Shown one piece after another: positions 3,642-60,955 of a DNA stretch of 64,000 nt. Positions within the stretch are counted from its first letter, which is position 1, and each line of letters opens with the position of its first letter. Both the position numbers and the translations under genes were made by a program. The notes below the pieces were generated by a model that saw nothing but the letters and a program-made list of their open reading frames with translations, was not told the origin of the DNA and searched no databases. The stretch comes from Octopus sinensis (lineage: Eukaryota). Location: NCBI RefSeq assembly GCF_006345805.1, contig NC_042998.1, forward strand, positions 81,592,001 to 81,656,000. The letters run 5' to 3'.

Positions 3642-4535
3642 TTCTTTACCTCCACCATCACCATCACCACCATGGTTACAATTGTAAAATAAAAAATTGT
3701 GACTAAATTGTTATGCCATTGATGATATAGATCACCATTTTTATTTCGGTGATGATAAGATTTCAGTGCACAAACATGAGTAATCATTACACATATGTTT
3801 AAGTAACATTGTTTAACTAACAGTGGTAGTTGTCAGTCAGCGGTATATTAACAATATTAACATCATTTACAATATAATACACCGCTTGAGTTATATTTAC
3901 TTAGAAATATATCATTAACTGTTTAAATAATACATGTGTAACGGGATTCAGGAACATATACATATTTACTAATGGAAGTGGTTATATTTCGTTAAATGCT
4001 ATTTGAAGAAATAGCGTTTGAAAGCATTGTCAGCTTTTATCCGGTATAAAGAACCTTTCACTTTATGCAAAAAGGGTTATATCTTCTATTTGCTTCAGTA
4101 ATTTAACTGTGGCCATGCTGGTGCATGCAGAATTTTAAGTAAATGAATCTACCCCAGTACTTAGTTTTTAGCCCGGTACTTATTCTAGCGGTCTATTTTG
4201 CCGAAGCGCTGTGTTGCGGGGAGGTTAACATATCAACACATGCTGGCAAGCGGTGGCGGGAGAGCAACACAGACATAAATACACACGCACACGTGTATGT
4301 ATATATATATATATATATACATTCATACATACATACATACATACATACATACATACATACATACATACATACAAATCAATCTATCTATCTATCTATCTAT
4401 ATATATACATATATATATATTTACATATATATACATACATATATATATATATCTAATGCAGGATAAAATTTTTTCGAAAAAAAATTCTATGAATCGCCAG
4501 CATATAAAAAAATACCTTTAAAGGTTAATTTATAA

Positions 4536-22494: not shown

Positions 22495-22955
22495 GTGAGC
22501 CCTCAAATGACTTTAAGACCAGCTGTTGACTGATGGTTTAAAACACAAGTAATAGATATTATTCTAGTTTTTTTCTATATCTTTGCTCTTTGGAATCTGA
22601 TTCTGAATTAATGCTTTTGTGAACTAGCCTATGTCTTTTAAGTCCAAATATTGTCTTACAAGTTTTGTGACATATGACACAAGCTGTAAGAAGTCGTCGG
22701 GTTTCACGATTATTACTCACATGGGCATTTCGATTTTCATGTAACTCCATATGATTCACGTATCCTGCTTTTGACAAAAGAACACGATCACACATAATAC
22801 ATATCCGGTTTTCACAGTTGAGTTCAGTTCCAATTATACCTTTTCAATAGGCCCTTTTAAGCTCAGAGTGCTGAATCATCTTTTCGGCCCAGGCGTTGCA
22901 ACCAGCCCTAACAACACCTCTCCACTTGTTCCGATCCAGAACATCAAATTCCCAA
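22495..22955 (-). mobile_element. RTE-clade LINE 3' fragment
   Basis: WEFDVLDRNKWRGVVRAG..E.KR, followed by two C2H2-like motifs (CDRVLLSKAGYVNHMELH; CVICHKTCKTIFGLKRHRLVH). Confidence 0.7.
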
Positions 22956-50094: not shown

Positions 50095-50892
50095 TTTAGG
50101 TTGGCATCTTTGGTGATATGATGGTCGGACTATGAAAAGTCCCTGATGGCATTAAGATGACATCCGAAACTCTTACTTTCTTAAAGGACAATTTCCAACC
50201 ATGGTTCAAAAAAGAAAACTTTCAATCATGAGAGAGCTGGTCTTCATGCAACGAAGAATTCTAAGGTATACCTGCAGCAAATAGGATTCTCTGGAGGTCA
50301 TTTGACTGAGTGGCCACCTTGTTCCCCTGACTTAAACCTAATTGAGAACCTGTGGAGTGTCCCGATGAGGCTCGTTTACCAAGATGGACGGCAGTTTTCA
50401 AGTAAAGTTGTCCTCTGGGATGCTATTGTAGGTGATGCTCAAAGCATGACACAGGAGGAAATAATCACCTTGATAAATTCGATGGATCAGCGCGTAAGGA
50501 AGGTTATTGCATGTGGAGGATCATATGTCAAACATTAGAAGCTGTATGACAACGTAATCCCATGATTATTTTCATTTGAACGTAATATTGGGTTTATAAC
50601 TAAGCCCTTTATGAATAGGTTTTTGTTAAGCCTTTATTGTGGGATTAAATAAATGTTTGTTCTGATACAATTATCACTTTCATTATAATTGCCTAATAAT
50701 TTCTAACAGTGTAAATGTTGCCCAATGACAAACATGGCCGCCATTCGTTGGCGTCTGCGTAGATCCGAATTATTTTAACAGAATATGCGCAGATAGGTGT
50801 TGTGAACACTCAATGGGAAAACAACTGGTTTTGAACGAATATGCATTCATTTATTGAGAGAAGGTTGATTTGCCTAATAATTTGGGACTATG
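50095..50892 (+). mobile_element. Tc1-like transposon right half (transposase C-terminus plus right terminal repeat)
   Basis: ORF 50302-50538 contains EWPPCSPDLNLIENLWS...LINSM..RV..VI..GG. Direct repeat TTGCCTAATAATTT at 50689-50702 and 50870-50883. Confidence 0.8.
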
Positions 50893-54503: not shown

Positions 54504-54937
54504 GCTTTATTACCCACAAGGGGCTAAACACAGAGGGGACAAACAAGGACAGATATAAGTATTAAGTCGATTAGATCGACCCCAGTGCGTAACTGGTACT
54601 TAATTTATCGACTCCGAAAGAATGAAAGGCAAAGTCGACCTCGGCGGAATTCGAACTCACAACGTAACGCAGACGAAATACCTCTAAGTATTTCGCCCGG
54701 CGTGCTAACGTTTCTGCCAGCTCGCCGCTTTACCGTATGTTACCGTATGTTAATTCCATTTACTGTTCAAGGTTGGGAGCTACAAGAATGCTTAACGGAA
54801 TTTCGCCCAGGTTTATGTTCTGAGTTCAAATTCCATCCTTTCGAGGTCGATAAAATAGGTGCCAGACGAGCATTAGGATCGATGCTATTGACTTGCCCCT
54901 TACCTCAAACTTGCTATCTTTGTGCCAAACAGGTATA
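54504..54937. mobile_element. Composite insertion: SINE A (minus) plus a copy of 53431-53620, inside a 19-bp direct repeat
   Basis: GTTTGCATCTATACCTATT at 54485-54503 and 54938-54956. 54740-54929 duplicates 53431-53620. Confidence 0.75.
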
Positions 54938-55422
54938 GTTTGCATCTATACCTATTATCGGATTTTGTTAGGGCTTCATATGGTACACATGTGAACAAGA
55001 AAAATGTGGGTAGAGGGTGATGTACTAGGAACTCTCCCCTTACTATTTTACAAAGTATACAACACAAATAACTACGCAGAGGCAGCCTTGGTTGAAATAA
55101 GAGCAAGAACAACAGGCAGTATTAAAAGAGAAAAGAAGCATGGTCATTCCTTACCCAAGTGACCTTATCTTATCGCCCATCACTTGTTATGCGGTCATAA
55201 ATTAGTTTGATATTTGAACTCTGATTGGCTGTATGCACACGAGTTCATAACTGGGGTTCGGAATTCTGGCGTTGTTTTAGGCCCAGGAAAACATCTTTTC
55301 CAGCAGGCTAACGACACTCATTCTGTGTCCGTATGTAGCTAAAATAAAAGTAACATGGTCTTTTACATATAAACATTGTTACGGTATTGTTTCGCTCAGA
55401 TATTTAAAATACGTTGTTTTTC

Positions 55423-55472
<50 letters not shown>

Positions 55473-55519
55473 GTGTGTGTGTGTGTGTTGTGTGTGTGTG
55501 TGTGTGCGTGTAGAAAAGC

Positions 55520-55632
55520 GTATGCTCGAAACGTAAAAGACTTTTTCTATTCCTGAGCGTTATACTAATACATCTGTTTGTTTTGTACACCACCAGTCTT
55601 CGTCTTTTGTTTTTTACGTAAACTTTCCCTAT
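55520..55632 (+). mobile_element. Truncated PLE-like tail with a partial HHR
   Basis: AGC-GTAT-GCTC-GAAAC-GTA-AAAGAC followed by a ~90-bp tail between microsatellites. The CUGANGA half is absent. Confidence 0.4.
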
Positions 55633-55641
55633 ATGTATATG

Positions 55642-55710
<69 letters not shown>

Positions 55711-55712
55711 GT

Positions 55713-55743
<31 letters not shown>

Positions 55744-55798
55744 ATATATAAATTGATCAAAATAAAAATAAAAATAAAAACATGAGGCGAAGGATTCA

Positions 55799-55876
55799 GC
55801 GGTACATATGTTTCGGGCCTTTATTAGACAGATTCATAACAAATCATAATGTATGTCTGTGGCCTTCTTCAGCCGC
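55799..55876 (-). ncRNA. Type I hammerhead ribozyme (mirror of 59733-59810)
   Basis: Reverse complement: GCGG-CUGAAGA-AGGCC...GGCCC-GAAA-C-AUAU-G-UA-CCGC. Confidence 0.85.
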
Positions 55877-57427
55877 GCACAACAGCTTCCACAAGGACAT
55901 GTGTTAACTTCCGAAATTCTTGGTTGGGGATGCAAACTTCTCGTTCCCGTACGACATAATGCGGCAGCAGCATCGAATTGAATCGTCCATCTCCTTCTTC
56001 TCTCAGTGTAGAATGAGAAAACTTGGATGTTGAGGTAATGTAAATAAATAAATACGTATATAGAGGTGAAGATGGAGGGGCGAGAGTTCGGGATGAGGGA
56101 TAAAAATATAAAATAATATAAAATAATATAAAAATGTAGAGGATAAAGATATAAAGAGTTGTAAGGAGATGTAAAGGGGGTATAAAGAAATATAAAGAAA
56201 ATAAATAAATGTAAAGGCATAATGTTGTAAAGTAAAAATAGAAATGGAAATAATAGTAAAAGAAGTAAAAGAACCTGATAAAAACATGATAAAAGTGTAA
56301 AAGAATGTAAAGATAAGGGATGTATAGAGGTCGCGGACCCAGCATGGTGGTCAGGAGATTGATAAAACCTAGTTGTAGAACTGTCAGTAAATTAACGGTT
56401 TCGTCGTAAATCAGAGCTGATGAGAGTTTAATCTGGTTCCTTGAATTAAATGGACTTCCAGTACATACATATCATCATGGGTACATACACCCACATACAC
56501 GCGTACATATACGTCTCCAAGTCTATAAGCAAACACACGCACTCGCGTGTAAACACGTACATAAACACACACGCACCCACACGCACACGCGCACACACAC
56601 GTACATACAACAGAATATCCGCATATATAGACGGACATTACGCGCGTACACGCTCACATGTATATACGCGCGCCCCTCACTACATACGTACACGTATATG
56701 CCCACGTCTCTAGGTCTAGGTATAAGATATTAAAGGATGTGTATAAGAACGTTGTAAAGAATCCCGTACTCATTTTAATACGCGCACGCACACACGGCTG
56801 TGTGTCCGTATGTGCGTGCACATATATATATTCACATACACACACAGAGACACACGCGCCCATGGGTATAGTCATAAGATATCGAAGTATGCATGTACAT
56901 ATACGCGCGCGCATATGTATGTATGCGCATACACACGTACGCGGACGCTCGGATACTCAAAAGGCGGGTCCATAGGTAAGTAAATAAACATATATAGAGG
57001 TGTAAAGCGATAAATTAGGGGTAAGAATGAGGGTAAGGGTAAAGATTAGAAATAAAAAATACAGTATAAATAAGAAATACAATGTAATAGTTAGAGATGA
57101 AATATAAGAATTATAAGGGTTATAAGAGTTAAGGTAAGGGATGAAAATGAAAATGAGAGTAAATGGCAGTAGAATAAACGTAAAAATAAAAGTAAAAATA
57201 AAATTAAAAATAAAAATAAATGGAAGTAGGATAAAAGTAAAAATAAAAATGAAAATAAAAATAAAAATAAAATAAAAATAAAATAAAATAAAATAAAATA
57301 AAATATAAAAATAAAAAAATAAGGTAAAAATATAATTTTGTAAAGTTTAACATGAGATGGAGGTGGCCCACATATATATATATATATATGTGTATATGTA
57401 CACACACATACACGTGTGTGCACATAC

Positions 57428-57463
<36 letters not shown>

Positions 57464-57548
57464 ACTCACATATAGGAAAACGGGATGTGCTGGAGCCGAC
57501 AGGTTGCACCGGGTGGGAGGAAATAGCATGGGGGAGTTGGTATAAGAC

Positions 57549-57866
57549 CTAAGCATTGTAGTATTTGAAAGTATTAATAAGTTTATGTATACAGGATGGT
57601 TTGAACTCTGACCTTTTGTTAATAAGAATGTGTTTGTCTTTGAATTTCAAGATGTTCAGGAGTTCTACACAGCATAGTTGGCATCCTGCTCTTTATTTAA
57701 ATAAGGTGCAGCTGATCCGATGATGGACCATCTGAGTTTGAAGCTTATGCATTTGTCTTTTAATTCCCAAATTCTTTTAGAGAGGGAGGTGCTGTTAGCC
57801 TTATGTCTATGTCTCAGCGAGGACCGGTGGTTGTAGTATCTGGATTTCCAGGAGGTTGAGCAACCA
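57549..57866 (-). pseudogene. PLE GIY-YIG endonuclease C-terminal fragment (not in the ORF track)
   Basis: Manual translation: GCSTSWKSRYYNHRSSLRHRHKANSTSLSKRIWELKDK..FKLRWSIIGSAAPY..GCQLCCVELLNILKF...LINKRSEFKPSCIHK...YNA*. One 1-nt indel relative to the mirror arm. Confidence 0.85.
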
Positions 57867-58057
57867 AACTCAGATGGTCCATCATCGGATCAGCTGCACC
57901 TTATTTAAATAATAGAGCAGGATGCCAACTATGCTGTGTAGAACTCCTGAACATCTTGAAATTCAAAAACAAACACAATCTTATTAACAAAAGGTCAGAG
58001 TTCAAACCATCCTGTATACATAAACTTATTAATACTTTCAAATACTACAATGCTTAG
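57866..58057 (+). pseudogene. Inverted duplicate of the PLE endonuclease C-terminus
   Basis: KLRWSIIGSAAPYLNNRAGCQLCCVELLNILKFKNKHNLINKRSEFKPSCIHKLINTFKYYNA*. Confidence 0.85.
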
Positions 58058-59732
58058 GTCTTATACCAACTCCCCCATGCTATTTCCTCCCACCCGGTGC
58101 AACCTGTCGGCTCCAGCACATCCCGTTTTCCTATATGTGAGTGTGTATGTGTGGTGTGTGTGTGTGTGCGTGTGTATGTGCACACACGTGTATGTGTGTG
58201 TACATATACACATATATATATATTATATGTGGGCCACCTCCATCTCATGTTAAACTTTACAAAATTATATTTTTACCTTATTTTTTATTTTTATATTTTA
58301 TTTTTATTTTTATTTTATTTTATTTTTATTTTTATTTTTATTTTTATTTTTATTTTCATTTTTATTTTTACTTTTATCCTACTTCCATTTATTTTTATTT
58401 TTAATTTTATTTTTACTTTTATTTTTACGTTTATTCTACTGCCATTTACTCTCATTTTCATTTTCATCCCTTACCTTAACTCTTATAACCCTTATAATTC
58501 TTATATTTCATCTCTAACTATTACATTGTATTTCTTATTTATATTGTATTTTTTTATTTCTAATCTTTACCCTTACCCTCATTCTTACCCCTAATTTATC
58601 GCTTTACACCTCTATATATGTTTATTTACTTACCTATGGACCCGCCTTTTGAGTATCCGAGCGTCCGCGTACGTGTGTATGCGCATACATACATATGCGC
58701 GCGCGTATATGTACATGCATACTTCGATATCTTATGACTATACCCATGGGCGCGTGTGTCTCTGTGTGTGTATGTGAATATATATATGTGCACGCACATA
58801 CGGACACACAGCCGTGTGTGCGTGCGCGTATTAAAATGAGTACGGGATTCTTACATACGTTCTTATACACATCCTTTAATATCTTATACCTAGACCTAGA
58901 GACGTGGGCATATACGTGTACGTATGTAGTGAGGGGCGCGCGTATATACATGTGAGCGTGTACGCGCGTAATGTCCGTCTATATATGCGGATATTCTGTT
59001 GTATGTACGTGTGTGTGCGCGTGTGCGTGTGGGTGCGTGTGTGTTTATGTACGTGTTTACACGCGAGTGCGTGTGTTTGCTTATAGACTTGGAGACGTAT
59101 ATGTACGCGTGTATGTGGGTGTATGTACCCATGATGATATGTATGTACTGGAAGTCCATTTAATTCAAGGAACCAGATTAAACTCTCATCAGCTCTGATT
59201 TACGACGAAACCGTTAATTTACTGACAGTTCTACAACTAGGTTTTATCAATCTCCTGACCACCATGCTGGGTCCGCGACCTCTATACATCCCTTATCTTT
59301 ACATTCTTTTACACTTTTATCATGTTTTTATCAGGTTCTTTTACTTCTTTTACTATTATTTCCATTTCTATTTTTACTTTACAACATTATGCCTTTACAT
59401 TTATTTATATTCTTTATATTTCTTTATACCCCCTTTACATCTCCTTACAACTCTTTATATCTTTATCCTCTACATTTTTATATTATTTTATATTATTTTA
59501 TATTTTTATCCCTCATCCCGAACTCTCGCCCCTCCATCTTCACCTCTATATACGTATTTATTTATTTACATTACCTCAACATCCAAGTTTTCTCATTCTA
59601 CACTGAGAGAAGAAGGAGATGGACGATTCAATTCGATGCTGCTGCCGCATTATGTCGTACGGGAACGAGAAGATTTGCATCCCCAACCAAGAATTTCGGA
59701 AGTAACACATGTCCTTGTGGAAGCTGTTGTGC

Positions 59733-59810
59733 GCGGCTGAAGAAGGCCACAGACATACATTATGATTTGTTATGAATCTGTCTAATAAAGGCCCGAAACA
59801 TATGTACCGC
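59733..59810 (+). ncRNA. Type I hammerhead ribozyme, intact core
   Basis: Stem I GCGG/CCGC, CUGAAGA, stem II GGCC/GGCC extended by AGAC-containing pairing, GAAA, stem III C-AUAU-G, cleavage triplet GUA. Confidence 0.85.
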
Positions 59811-59940
59811 TGAATCCTTCGCCTCATGTTTTTATTTTTATTTTTATTTTGATCAATTTACTCCACCACCTACACCACCAAACGGTATACACAGGTGCTT
59901 ATAATTATCAAGTACTCAGCCCGAATTTCTACACTCAACT

Positions 59941-59986
<46 letters not shown>

Positions 59987-60696
59987 CATATGTGTGTGTG
60001 TTCGGCCCGCACCAACGCCTGACAACCGGTGTTTGCGTCCCCTTAACTTAGCGGTTCAGCAAAAAGAGACCAATAGAATATGTACTTGGCTTCAAAAAAA
60101 CGTCTTGGGGTCGATTTGTTCGACTAAAACCTATTGAGGCGGTGTCCCACCATGGTCACAGTAAAGGACTGAAATATGTAAAGGATAAAAGATAAAAGAC
60201 TTTGTCGACTTTTTCTTTTCTACAAGTTTGAAAACAAATACATCTCTCAATGTGTAAAACGTCTTATTTTTTATTTTTATCTCAATCAATAATTGCCTTT
60301 TTATAGAATATTTACGAGGCATTTATGAAAGTGACTTTCATTTGATTCTTTATTCTAGATTACTGTTCGAGTGCAATACACCTCTTATTCAAAACTACTT
60401 ACTTTCAAGAGTTGTTAAATAAACACTGATATTTATATAATTAGAATGCATCAGCAACAGTGATCGATACCGAAGGGAATATATAAGTTTGTAGCTGAAT
60501 ATAATAGTTGAACTTCAAACAGGGTTTAGTTAATACGTAGTTGCATAATTAAGCATTTCTCGTGGGTTTGCAAACAAAATATCTCATCATTATACACGAG
60601 TGTACCAGTTGCTTAGATATGATTTAAGAAATTAGATATGAAAATGAATACGGTTTATTGTATAACGATATCAAGAATACGTGTTTCATACATTAA

Positions 60697-60928
60697 TATC
60701 TTTATTGCCCATATGGAGCTAAACATAGAGGGAATAAACAAGGACAAACAAACGGATATTAAGTCGATTATATCGACCCCAGCGCGTAACTGGTAGTTAT
60801 TTAATCGACCCCGAAAGGATGAAAGGCAAAGCCGACCTCGGCGGAATTTGAACTCAGAACGTAACTACAGACGAAATACCGCTAAGCATTTCGCCCGGCG
60901 CGCTAGCGTTTCTGCCAGCTCGCCGCCT
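60697..60928 (-). mobile_element. SINE family A, full length
   Basis: Reverse complement of the 14626-14856 type. Confidence 0.9.
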
Positions 60929-60955
60929 TATATGTGTTTCATATATGTATATATA

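What the first reader, a model, noticed from the sequence alone, without database searches (positions are those of the whole stretch)
55749..59940. Young 4.1-kb palindromic Penelope-like insertion with two outward-facing intact hammerheads
Seen: ~2-kb arms with only scattered differences, a 124-bp spacer, a GIY-YIG C-terminus missed by the ORF track and an intact HHR core ~50 nt from each arm end. The ~1.8-kb non-coding 3' region contains its own (TTTTA)n, (CA)n and CpG-rich tracts. Inference: recent insertion by template switching. Read-through transcription would give a ~2-kb dsRNA (a possible ADAR or siRNA substrate) cut by an HHR near its 3' end in either direction. The CxxC...LNKRSE...CxH ending resembles Naiad-type PLE endonucleases.
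Basis: partly seen in the sequence, partly recalled or inferred. Interest (0 to 1): 0.75.

Follow-up and report, generated by a model that had tools for sequence, protein, structure and literature searches.

The report
Twin-primed Hydra-type Penelope palindromic insertion
This 4.2-kb mirror-image stretch is two truncated copies of a young Penelope-type jumping gene joined head to head, a common form for this family, and the short tail found on only one arm of nearly all such insertions suggests that each end of the cut DNA likely primes its own copy.

Summary
The palindrome is there as described: arms 55749-57740 and 57865-59860 (4 substitutions, 12 small indels), a 124-bp spacer and one hammerhead motif per arm. 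It is two 5'-truncated copies of a young Penelope-like element joined head to head through a 3-bp microhomology. It sits in (TA)n and has an 80-bp family 'tail' on the right arm only. Intact parents (836 aa, 4.44-kb unit) have RT first and GIY-YIG last, with Hydra-clade motifs. So it is not a Naiad, and it has no in-frame UGA. The form is ordinary here: 1,373 exact hammerhead copies, and 25 outward pairs among the first 100 listed. In 44 of 48 palindromes exactly one arm has the tail, on the longer or the shorter arm alike. This disfavours simple fold-back and points to priming from both target strands at two start sites (inferred). Ribozyme cutting of a read-through hairpin is unlikely: the motif is dimer-type and would be locked in duplex. 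Independent reads neither confirmed nor refuted the junction. This scan has already noted the same kind of element and mechanism on other DNA of this genome.

The parts
55749..57867 (-). Long, 5'-truncated copy of a Hydra-clade Penelope-like element: starts at codon G732 in the GIY-YIG domain, has a 1-nt frameshift near 57700, runs through the 3' UTR and hammerhead, has no tail and ends in (TA)n
57865..59940 (+). Short, 5'-truncated copy: starts at K774, runs through the 3' UTR and hammerhead, then the 80-bp tail
57741..57864 (-). 'Spacer': endonuclease-coding sequence present only in the left copy
57865..57867 (.). Head-to-head junction with 3-bp microhomology; the 24-mer across it occurs once in the assembly
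57866..58057 (+). Last 63 codons and TAG of the ORF (CxxC, conserved E and N, CxH)
58058..59860 (+). 1.8-kb 3' UTR and pLTR with (CA)n, (TTTTA)n and CpG-rich tracts, mirrored at 55749-57548
59593..59598 (+). Initiator-like motif at which short stubs of the family begin; predicted transcription start of the pLTR, mirrored in the left arm
   Evidence: initiator consensus recalled
59733..59810 (+). Type I hammerhead motif: 4-bp helix I, intact core with an extra A, long helix II with a bulged C and a ~40-nt loop hairpin, 2-bp helix III with a palindromic loop; predicted cut after 59806
   Evidence: sequence
55799..55876 (-). Mirror copy of the hammerhead motif
59861..59940 (+). 80-bp tail, equal to the first 80 nt of the next tandem unit; right arm only
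55629..55748 (.). Left target tract, (TA)n/(TATG)n
59941..59990 (.). Right target tract, (TA)n; no target-site duplication can be read

Best explanation
The palindrome is two 5'-truncated copies of a young Hydra-type Penelope-like retrotransposon joined head to head in a (TA)n tract, likely made in one insertion event in which each cut DNA strand primed its own reverse transcript. Shown: identity, truncation points, 3-bp junction overlap, one-sided tail, target tract and family-wide regularities. Inferred steps: (1) an autonomous copy's RT-GIY-YIG protein cuts both strands of (TA)n; (2) one 3'-OH primes at the far start site (tail end, +70 or +80 nt into the next unit) and the other at the near site (pLTR end); (3) both cDNAs, from the same parent's RNA, stop about 2 kb upstream, 127 nt apart; (4) their 3' ends join by microhomology and each serves as template for the other's second strand. 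The insertion is dead on arrival because it has no RT. Its hammerheads are passengers of the pLTR and are predicted not to cut a read-through hairpin.
For: Parents with an intact 836-aa ORF in L032 and L035. The best structural matches of the model are telomerase RTs (Foldseek E 4e-9; Z 17.1, rmsd 4.3, 301 aligned). Hydra motifs are present. 25 outward pairs, 0 inward and 1 tandem among the first 100 of 1,373 hammerhead hits. Exactly one tail in 44 of 48 palindromes (nominal p 8e-10 against 0.5); the tail arm is longer in 18 and shorter in 25 of 43. Junction overlap averages 1.9 nt against 0.69 by chance in 29 junctions. (TA)n follows 57 of 57 and 67 of 68 ends. The window's arms differ by 0.18%, against 0.45% to the nearest other copy, and share 3 variants absent from all other fetched loci. 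In vitro, a Poseidon PLE cuts and extends both strands and starts at two internal sites that define the tail (PMC11167929).
Against: No read or contig bridging the junction was found in 5 public runs (contigs only, so inconclusive). The mechanism is inferred from end products only. 4 of 48 palindromes break the one-tail rule. 10 of 39 measured junctions have 1-38 unmatched bases and were left out of the microhomology mean, and 8 of 47 gave no value. Arm 5' ends lie closer together than chance (17 of 47 within 150 nt against 6.9 expected; 6 of 25 against 2.0 without stubs), which fold-back also predicts. Some 5' positions in diverged loci were mapped by k-mers and may be off. Variants shared by the arms fit a shared parent, copying of one arm from the other, or later gene conversion equally well. 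No tree was built.
Confidence: 0.72

Rival explanations
1. Fold-back or template switch: one cDNA primed at (TA)n folds back over a 124-nt loop at the 3-bp microhomology and copies itself. The one-sided tail then arises later, by endonuclease resolution or by a jump back to the RNA.
For: Arms share 3 private variants. 5' ends of the two arms are often close. Junction microhomology. Self-priming was proposed for rotifer Penelope palindromes (PMC3846280), and endonuclease resolution for tails (PMC8557442).
Against: A copy cannot hold sequence that its template lacks: the short arm alone has the tail here and in 25 of 43 loci. Differences in arm length reach more than 3 kb, too long for a simple loop. 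An extra step is needed in about half of the events.
Confidence: 0.17
2. Assembly or long-read fold-back artefact.
For: Arm differences are mostly homopolymer indels. The junction was not bridged in 5 runs. No second haplotype of the flanks is in the assembly.
Against: The flanks are not mirrored. The right arm has an 80-bp tail that ends at a family-typical point (9 of 52 tails end at +80). Both ends meet (TA)n. 47 other loci show the same anatomy with different junctions. The form is in print for PLEs.
Confidence: 0.04
3. Two separate insertions, or a later rearrangement, brought two copies together head to head.
For: The family is abundant, and nested or tandem loci exist (L035, L049, L075).
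Against: There is no (TA)n at the junction. 0 inward against 25 outward pairs. The arms are closer to each other than to any other copy. The one-tail rule would not hold.
Confidence: 0.03
4. Whatever its origin, the locus now works as a ribozyme-processed dsRNA source (ADAR or siRNA substrate).
For: A read-through RNA would form a near-perfect 2-kb stem. The hammerhead core is intact.
Against: No convincing host gene was found in 102 scanned frames of the window (4 weak Pfam hits). The predicted pLTR starts point outward, away from the stem. Each strand has one sense hammerhead, of the dimer type; a single minimal motif of this kind did not cleave in vitro (PMC4209133). The duplex is about 140 kcal/mol more stable than the ribozyme fold. 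RNA cannot be assigned to this copy among hundreds except at the junction and 3 private sites.
Confidence: 0.06

Closest known systems
Hydra clade of C-terminal-endonuclease Penelope-like elements, including Hydra-1_Obim and Penelope-13_HM (Craig et al. 2021, PMC8557442; read: passages, sections 11 and 15, supplement rows)
   Same: Single ORF with RT then GIY-YIG; RW(K/A), DKT, CxCX5C linker, CxxC and CxH around E and N; hammerhead in the pLTR; (TA)n target. Penelope-13_HM is listed with a 5'-truncated inverted copy and a hammerhead on each strand.
   Different: Unit of 4.44 kb against 'generally <3 kb', because of a 1.8-kb microsatellite-rich 3' UTR and two N/R/T-rich disordered inserts (residues about 486-550 and 630-693). 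Tail of 70-80 nt against 30-40 nt. Hammerhead loop II about 40 nt. Its hammerhead and protein differ by eye from Hydra-1_Obim, so it is another family.
Poseidon element PAc of Anolis (Frangieh et al. 2024, PMC11167929; read parts 1-2 of 4)
   Same: AT-rich target; the tail is the stretch between two internal RT start sites; both strands are cut and extended; predicted dimer.
   Different: Other clade. Its start sites lie inside the ORF, here in the 5' UTR (ATG at +150). That paper does not show which strand uses which site; the one-tail-per-palindrome count here bears on that.
Minimal and dimer-type hammerheads of metazoan PLEs (Cervera and de la Pena 2014, PMC4209133; read parts 1-2 of 4)
   Same: Type I, short helix I, extra base after A9, G10.1-C11.1, palindromic helix III, a bulge in helix II as in Drosophila virilis; pairs on opposite strands were already noted there.
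   Different: Much longer helix II extension; activity untested here.
Naiad elements (PMC8557442)
   Same: Inverted and tandem insertions, tail, (TA)n target.
   Different: Naiads have the endonuclease at the N-terminus, lack canonical hammerheads, and some encode selenocysteine; none of these holds here.
LINE-1 twin priming (recalled, no call)
   Same: Both target strands prime, and the cDNAs join by microhomology.
   Different: In L1 the inverted part is a different stretch of the RNA, so no palindrome forms; here both arms copy the same 3' end from two start sites.

Membership tests
Penelope-like element (EN+) | Telomerase-related RT and GIY-YIG endonuclease in one ORF | tested here: met
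   Parent 836 aa; telomerase RT tops both fold searches. VIY715/YIG730 present; 2 of 15 aligned members hit Pfam GIY-YIG and 2 hit RVT_1; one Atlas cluster with GIY-YIG on 33% of members. The parent itself has no Pfam RT or EN hit.
Penelope-like element (EN+) | pLTR, partial tandems, inverted 5'-truncated copy, optional tail | tested here: met
Hydra clade | Endonuclease at the C-terminus | tested here: met
Hydra clade | RWK motif and DKG changed to DKT | tested here: met
   RWA at 39 (RWK/RWR/RWQ/RWP in aligned relatives), ADKT at 125
Hydra clade | Linker CxCX5C; CxxC and CxH either side of conserved E and N; no CCHH | tested here: met
   CNCRCASEC 696, CQLC 793, CIH 823; only one, unconserved Cys between VIY and YIG
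Hydra clade | Canonical-type hammerhead and (TA)n target | tested here: met
Hydra clade | Generally short (<3 kb); a tendency, not a criterion | tested here: not met
   4,440-bp unit
Hydra clade | RT phylogeny groups with named Hydra families; no IFD | not tested
Naiad | N-terminal GIY-YIG endonuclease | tested here: not met
Naiad | No canonical hammerhead | tested here: not met
   full core in 106 of 129 fetched copies
Naiad selenoprotein type | In-frame UGA | tested here: not met
   0 TGA in 2 of 2 intact ORFs, both ending in TAG; SECIS not searched
Type I hammerhead ribozyme | Core CUGANGA, GAAA, UH with helices I-III | tested here: met
   sequence; the MFE of 59728-59815 forms helices I and II, z -0.04, so fold energy is no evidence; Rfam gives no hit
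Type I hammerhead ribozyme | Covariation of helices | not tested
   family too young; variation seen only in loop II and flanks
Type I hammerhead ribozyme | Self-cleavage | not testable with these tools
   needs an in vitro assay

The most novel reading that the evidence does not exclude
Head-to-head Penelope insertions are made by an asymmetric double priming rule: a dimeric RT-endonuclease primes one target strand at the far (tail) start site and the other at the near (pLTR end) site, so each palindrome gets exactly one tail. This young family, with intact masters and hundreds of such scars, offers a direct test of how PLE inverted repeats and tails form.
Probability: 0.55. Interest if true: 0.55.

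Novelty: new member of a known kind. Interest (0 to 1): 0.3.

Why it matters
The locus itself is an ordinary dead insertion of a form described for Penelope-like elements. Its family matters more. How PLE tandem and inverted structures and tails form is named as an open question (PMC8557442 section 15). The one-tail rule (44 of 48) links the two in vitro start sites of PMC11167929 to the two target strands. The family has intact 836-aa masters, so it could be the first Hydra-clade element tested in vitro. Hundreds of near-perfect 0.3-4 kb inverted repeats are also a plausible, untested source of dsRNA in this host.

Tried and rejected
Rfam at gathering and E-value thresholds gave no hammerhead, only microsatellite-driven miRNA noise. 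Pfam on the window peptides: 0 of 2; on the parent only a spurious Desmo_N hit. PDB sequence search with the alignment: only weak RT hits, E 0.34. The single-sequence model of the endonuclease failed (pLDDT 36.7), so its fold was not searched; the whole-model search was filled by the RT domain. Run search: no RNA holder listed. Laying contigs of X1, X2, X3, X5 and X6 on the junction showed no bridging record. Runs were partly read, piece tables were cut, and the source sample may not be among them, so this shows neither absence nor polymorphism. The 'opposite strands' joint in X6 is just a contiguous parent contig. The search for an empty allele or haplotig of either flank found none. A second CTGATGA (56417/59192) lacks the GAAA partner and was rejected as a hammerhead. 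L034 (overlaps L035) and L068 (flank) were left out of counts, and L075 (double palindrome) out of length comparisons. No age in years is given, since no rate was available.

Full report
Observation. The inverted repeat is real in the sequence: arms 55749-57740 and 57865-59860, with 1,979 matches, 4 substitutions and 12 small indels, and a 124-bp spacer. Each arm has a hammerhead motif whose predicted cut lies 54 nt from the arm end, facing outward. Both outer ends meet (TA)n tracts.

What it is. A DNA search of the window's genome gave 284 candidates; the 40 scored were 98-100% identical over the endonuclease end. Two fetched loci, L032 and L035, hold an intact ORF of 836 aa ending in TAG with no in-frame TGA. 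The window peptides match its C-terminus at 62/63 and 55/55 residues. The protein has 379 relatives at E up to 1e-30 in the representative library; none of the 8 looked up is named. Its model (pLDDT 78.7) matches telomerase RTs best. The order is RT, linker, GIY-YIG, with RWA, DKT, CxCX5C, CxxC and CxH. These are the marks given for the Hydra clade (PMC8557442 section 11). Naiads have the endonuclease first and no canonical hammerhead. The supplement lists a Hydra family from an octopus with another hammerhead, and a Hydra family with an attached inverted copy. I compared these by eye only and built no tree. Earlier notes of this scan call the host an octopus; I did not test that.

Anatomy. 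Against a real 4,440-bp copy, the left copy starts at position 2341 and the right at 2468, and they overlap by 3 bp at 57865-57867. The spacer is therefore the longer copy's extra reach. The 80 bp at 59861-59940 are the start of the next tandem unit, the PLE 'tail'. The 1.8-kb 3' region with its microsatellites is family sequence.

How common. A 27-mer of the hammerhead has 1,373 exact matches, control 0. Among the first 100 listed there are 25 outward pairs within 10 kb, 1 tandem and 0 inward. 4 of 17 apparent singles that I fetched (of 49) were also palindromes. So at least a third of loci look like this one.

Mechanism. I classified 48 palindromes: 21 from the set chosen by the endonuclease match, including the window, and 27 from the contig-1 list. 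44 have the tail on exactly one arm, 2 on neither, 1 has tail plus partial, and 1 has two partials. The tail arm is the longer in 18 and the shorter in 25 of 43. Tails end at +69-71 in 34, at +80 in 9 and otherwise in 9 of 52. In 29 junctions without extra bases the overlap averages 1.9 nt against 0.69 by chance; 10 junctions had unmatched bases and 8 gave no value. The window's arms differ at 2 of 1,121 unmasked columns (0.18%), against 0.45% to the nearest copy, and share 3 variants found in no other fetched locus. A fold-back copy cannot gain a tail that its template lacks, and independent choice of start site would give one tail in at most half of cases. The simplest reading is priming from both target strands, one at each of two start sites, followed by microhomology joining. 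This fits the in vitro finding that a Poseidon PLE cuts and extends both strands and starts at two sites bounding the tail (PMC11167929). It remains inferred. Against it, or neutral: arm 5' ends lie closer than chance (17 of 47 within 150 nt against 6.9), which fold-back also predicts; self-priming has been proposed before (PMC3846280, passages). 13 of 96 arm ends fall at 4174-4191, starting at an initiator-like motif (consensus recalled). This suggests run-off at the RNA 5' end and an outward-facing start at about 59595.

Hammerhead. The core is intact, with the extra A and palindromic 2-bp helix III described for dimer-type PLE motifs; a single minimal motif did not cleave in that study (PMC4209133). 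A transcript through the palindrome has one sense copy, and pairing with the other arm (-157.6 kcal/mol) far outweighs the ribozyme fold (-15.6). Protein-assisted cleavage was seen for PAc, so activity in parent transcripts stays open. No clear host gene was found in 102 of the window's 118 listed frames; the 16 inside the insertion were not scanned.

Artefact check. The flanks are not mirrored and occur once. The junction is unique, and the asymmetries match the family's rules. Contigs of five runs did not bridge the junction, which is inconclusive.

Novelty. Inverted PLE insertions, opposed hammerheads and one-sided tails are in print. Four full-text searches listed no PLE paper that uses 'twin priming' or counts tails per palindrome, but the library lacks most subscription papers. 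The retrozyme preprint (10.64898/2026.07.22.740005, passages) does not mention octopus. Earlier notes of this scan reached a Hydra identity and a two-copy mechanism on other DNA of this genome. I had formed my reading before that call, and they are not independent evidence. Verdict: a new member of a known kind, an ordinary locus, with a useful family-level clue to mechanism.

Noticed in passing
window 54935-55270: Copy of another abundant repeat (87-89% identity to many loci), often with a 53-bp inverted partner about 120-240 bp away; possibly another PLE-like palindromic family.
   Followed up: no
window 55510-55628: Looks like the end of an older hammerhead-type stub (second half of a core only) running into the (TA)n tract that served as target; read from sequence only.
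   Followed up: no
L057:4146-5348 (-): 401-aa frame resembling the thumb, linker and endonuclease of a second, diverged Hydra-type family; no Pfam hit.
   Followed up: partly
L034/L035 (G000:C19:25.71-25.73 Mb): Two nearly identical 4.65-kb full units separated by about 0.7 kb of TA-rich sequence; either a tandem duplication or an assembly duplicate.
   Followed up: no
L059:7299: Another copy truncated at exactly the same position (2341) as the window's long arm, and three more within 40 nt; possible pause site.
   Followed up: no
L075: Two short palindromes in tandem, each with one tail.
   Followed up: no
L032:2386-4893 (-), residues about 486-550 and 630-693: Two low-complexity N/R/T-rich disordered inserts in the intact ORF, recalling the N-rich inserts of rotifer Penelopes.
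   Followed up: partly
window 22562-22843 (-) and 50185-50535 (+): Weak C2H2 zinc-finger hit and weak DDE_3 transposase hit.
   Followed up: no
protein library: 379 clusters at 50% identity match the parent at E up to 1e-30, so Hydra-type elements are likely far more diverse than the two dozen or so families described.
   Followed up: no
window 54560-54730 and 60757-60930: Two copies of a common dispersed repeat (91% alike) flank the region.
   Followed up: no
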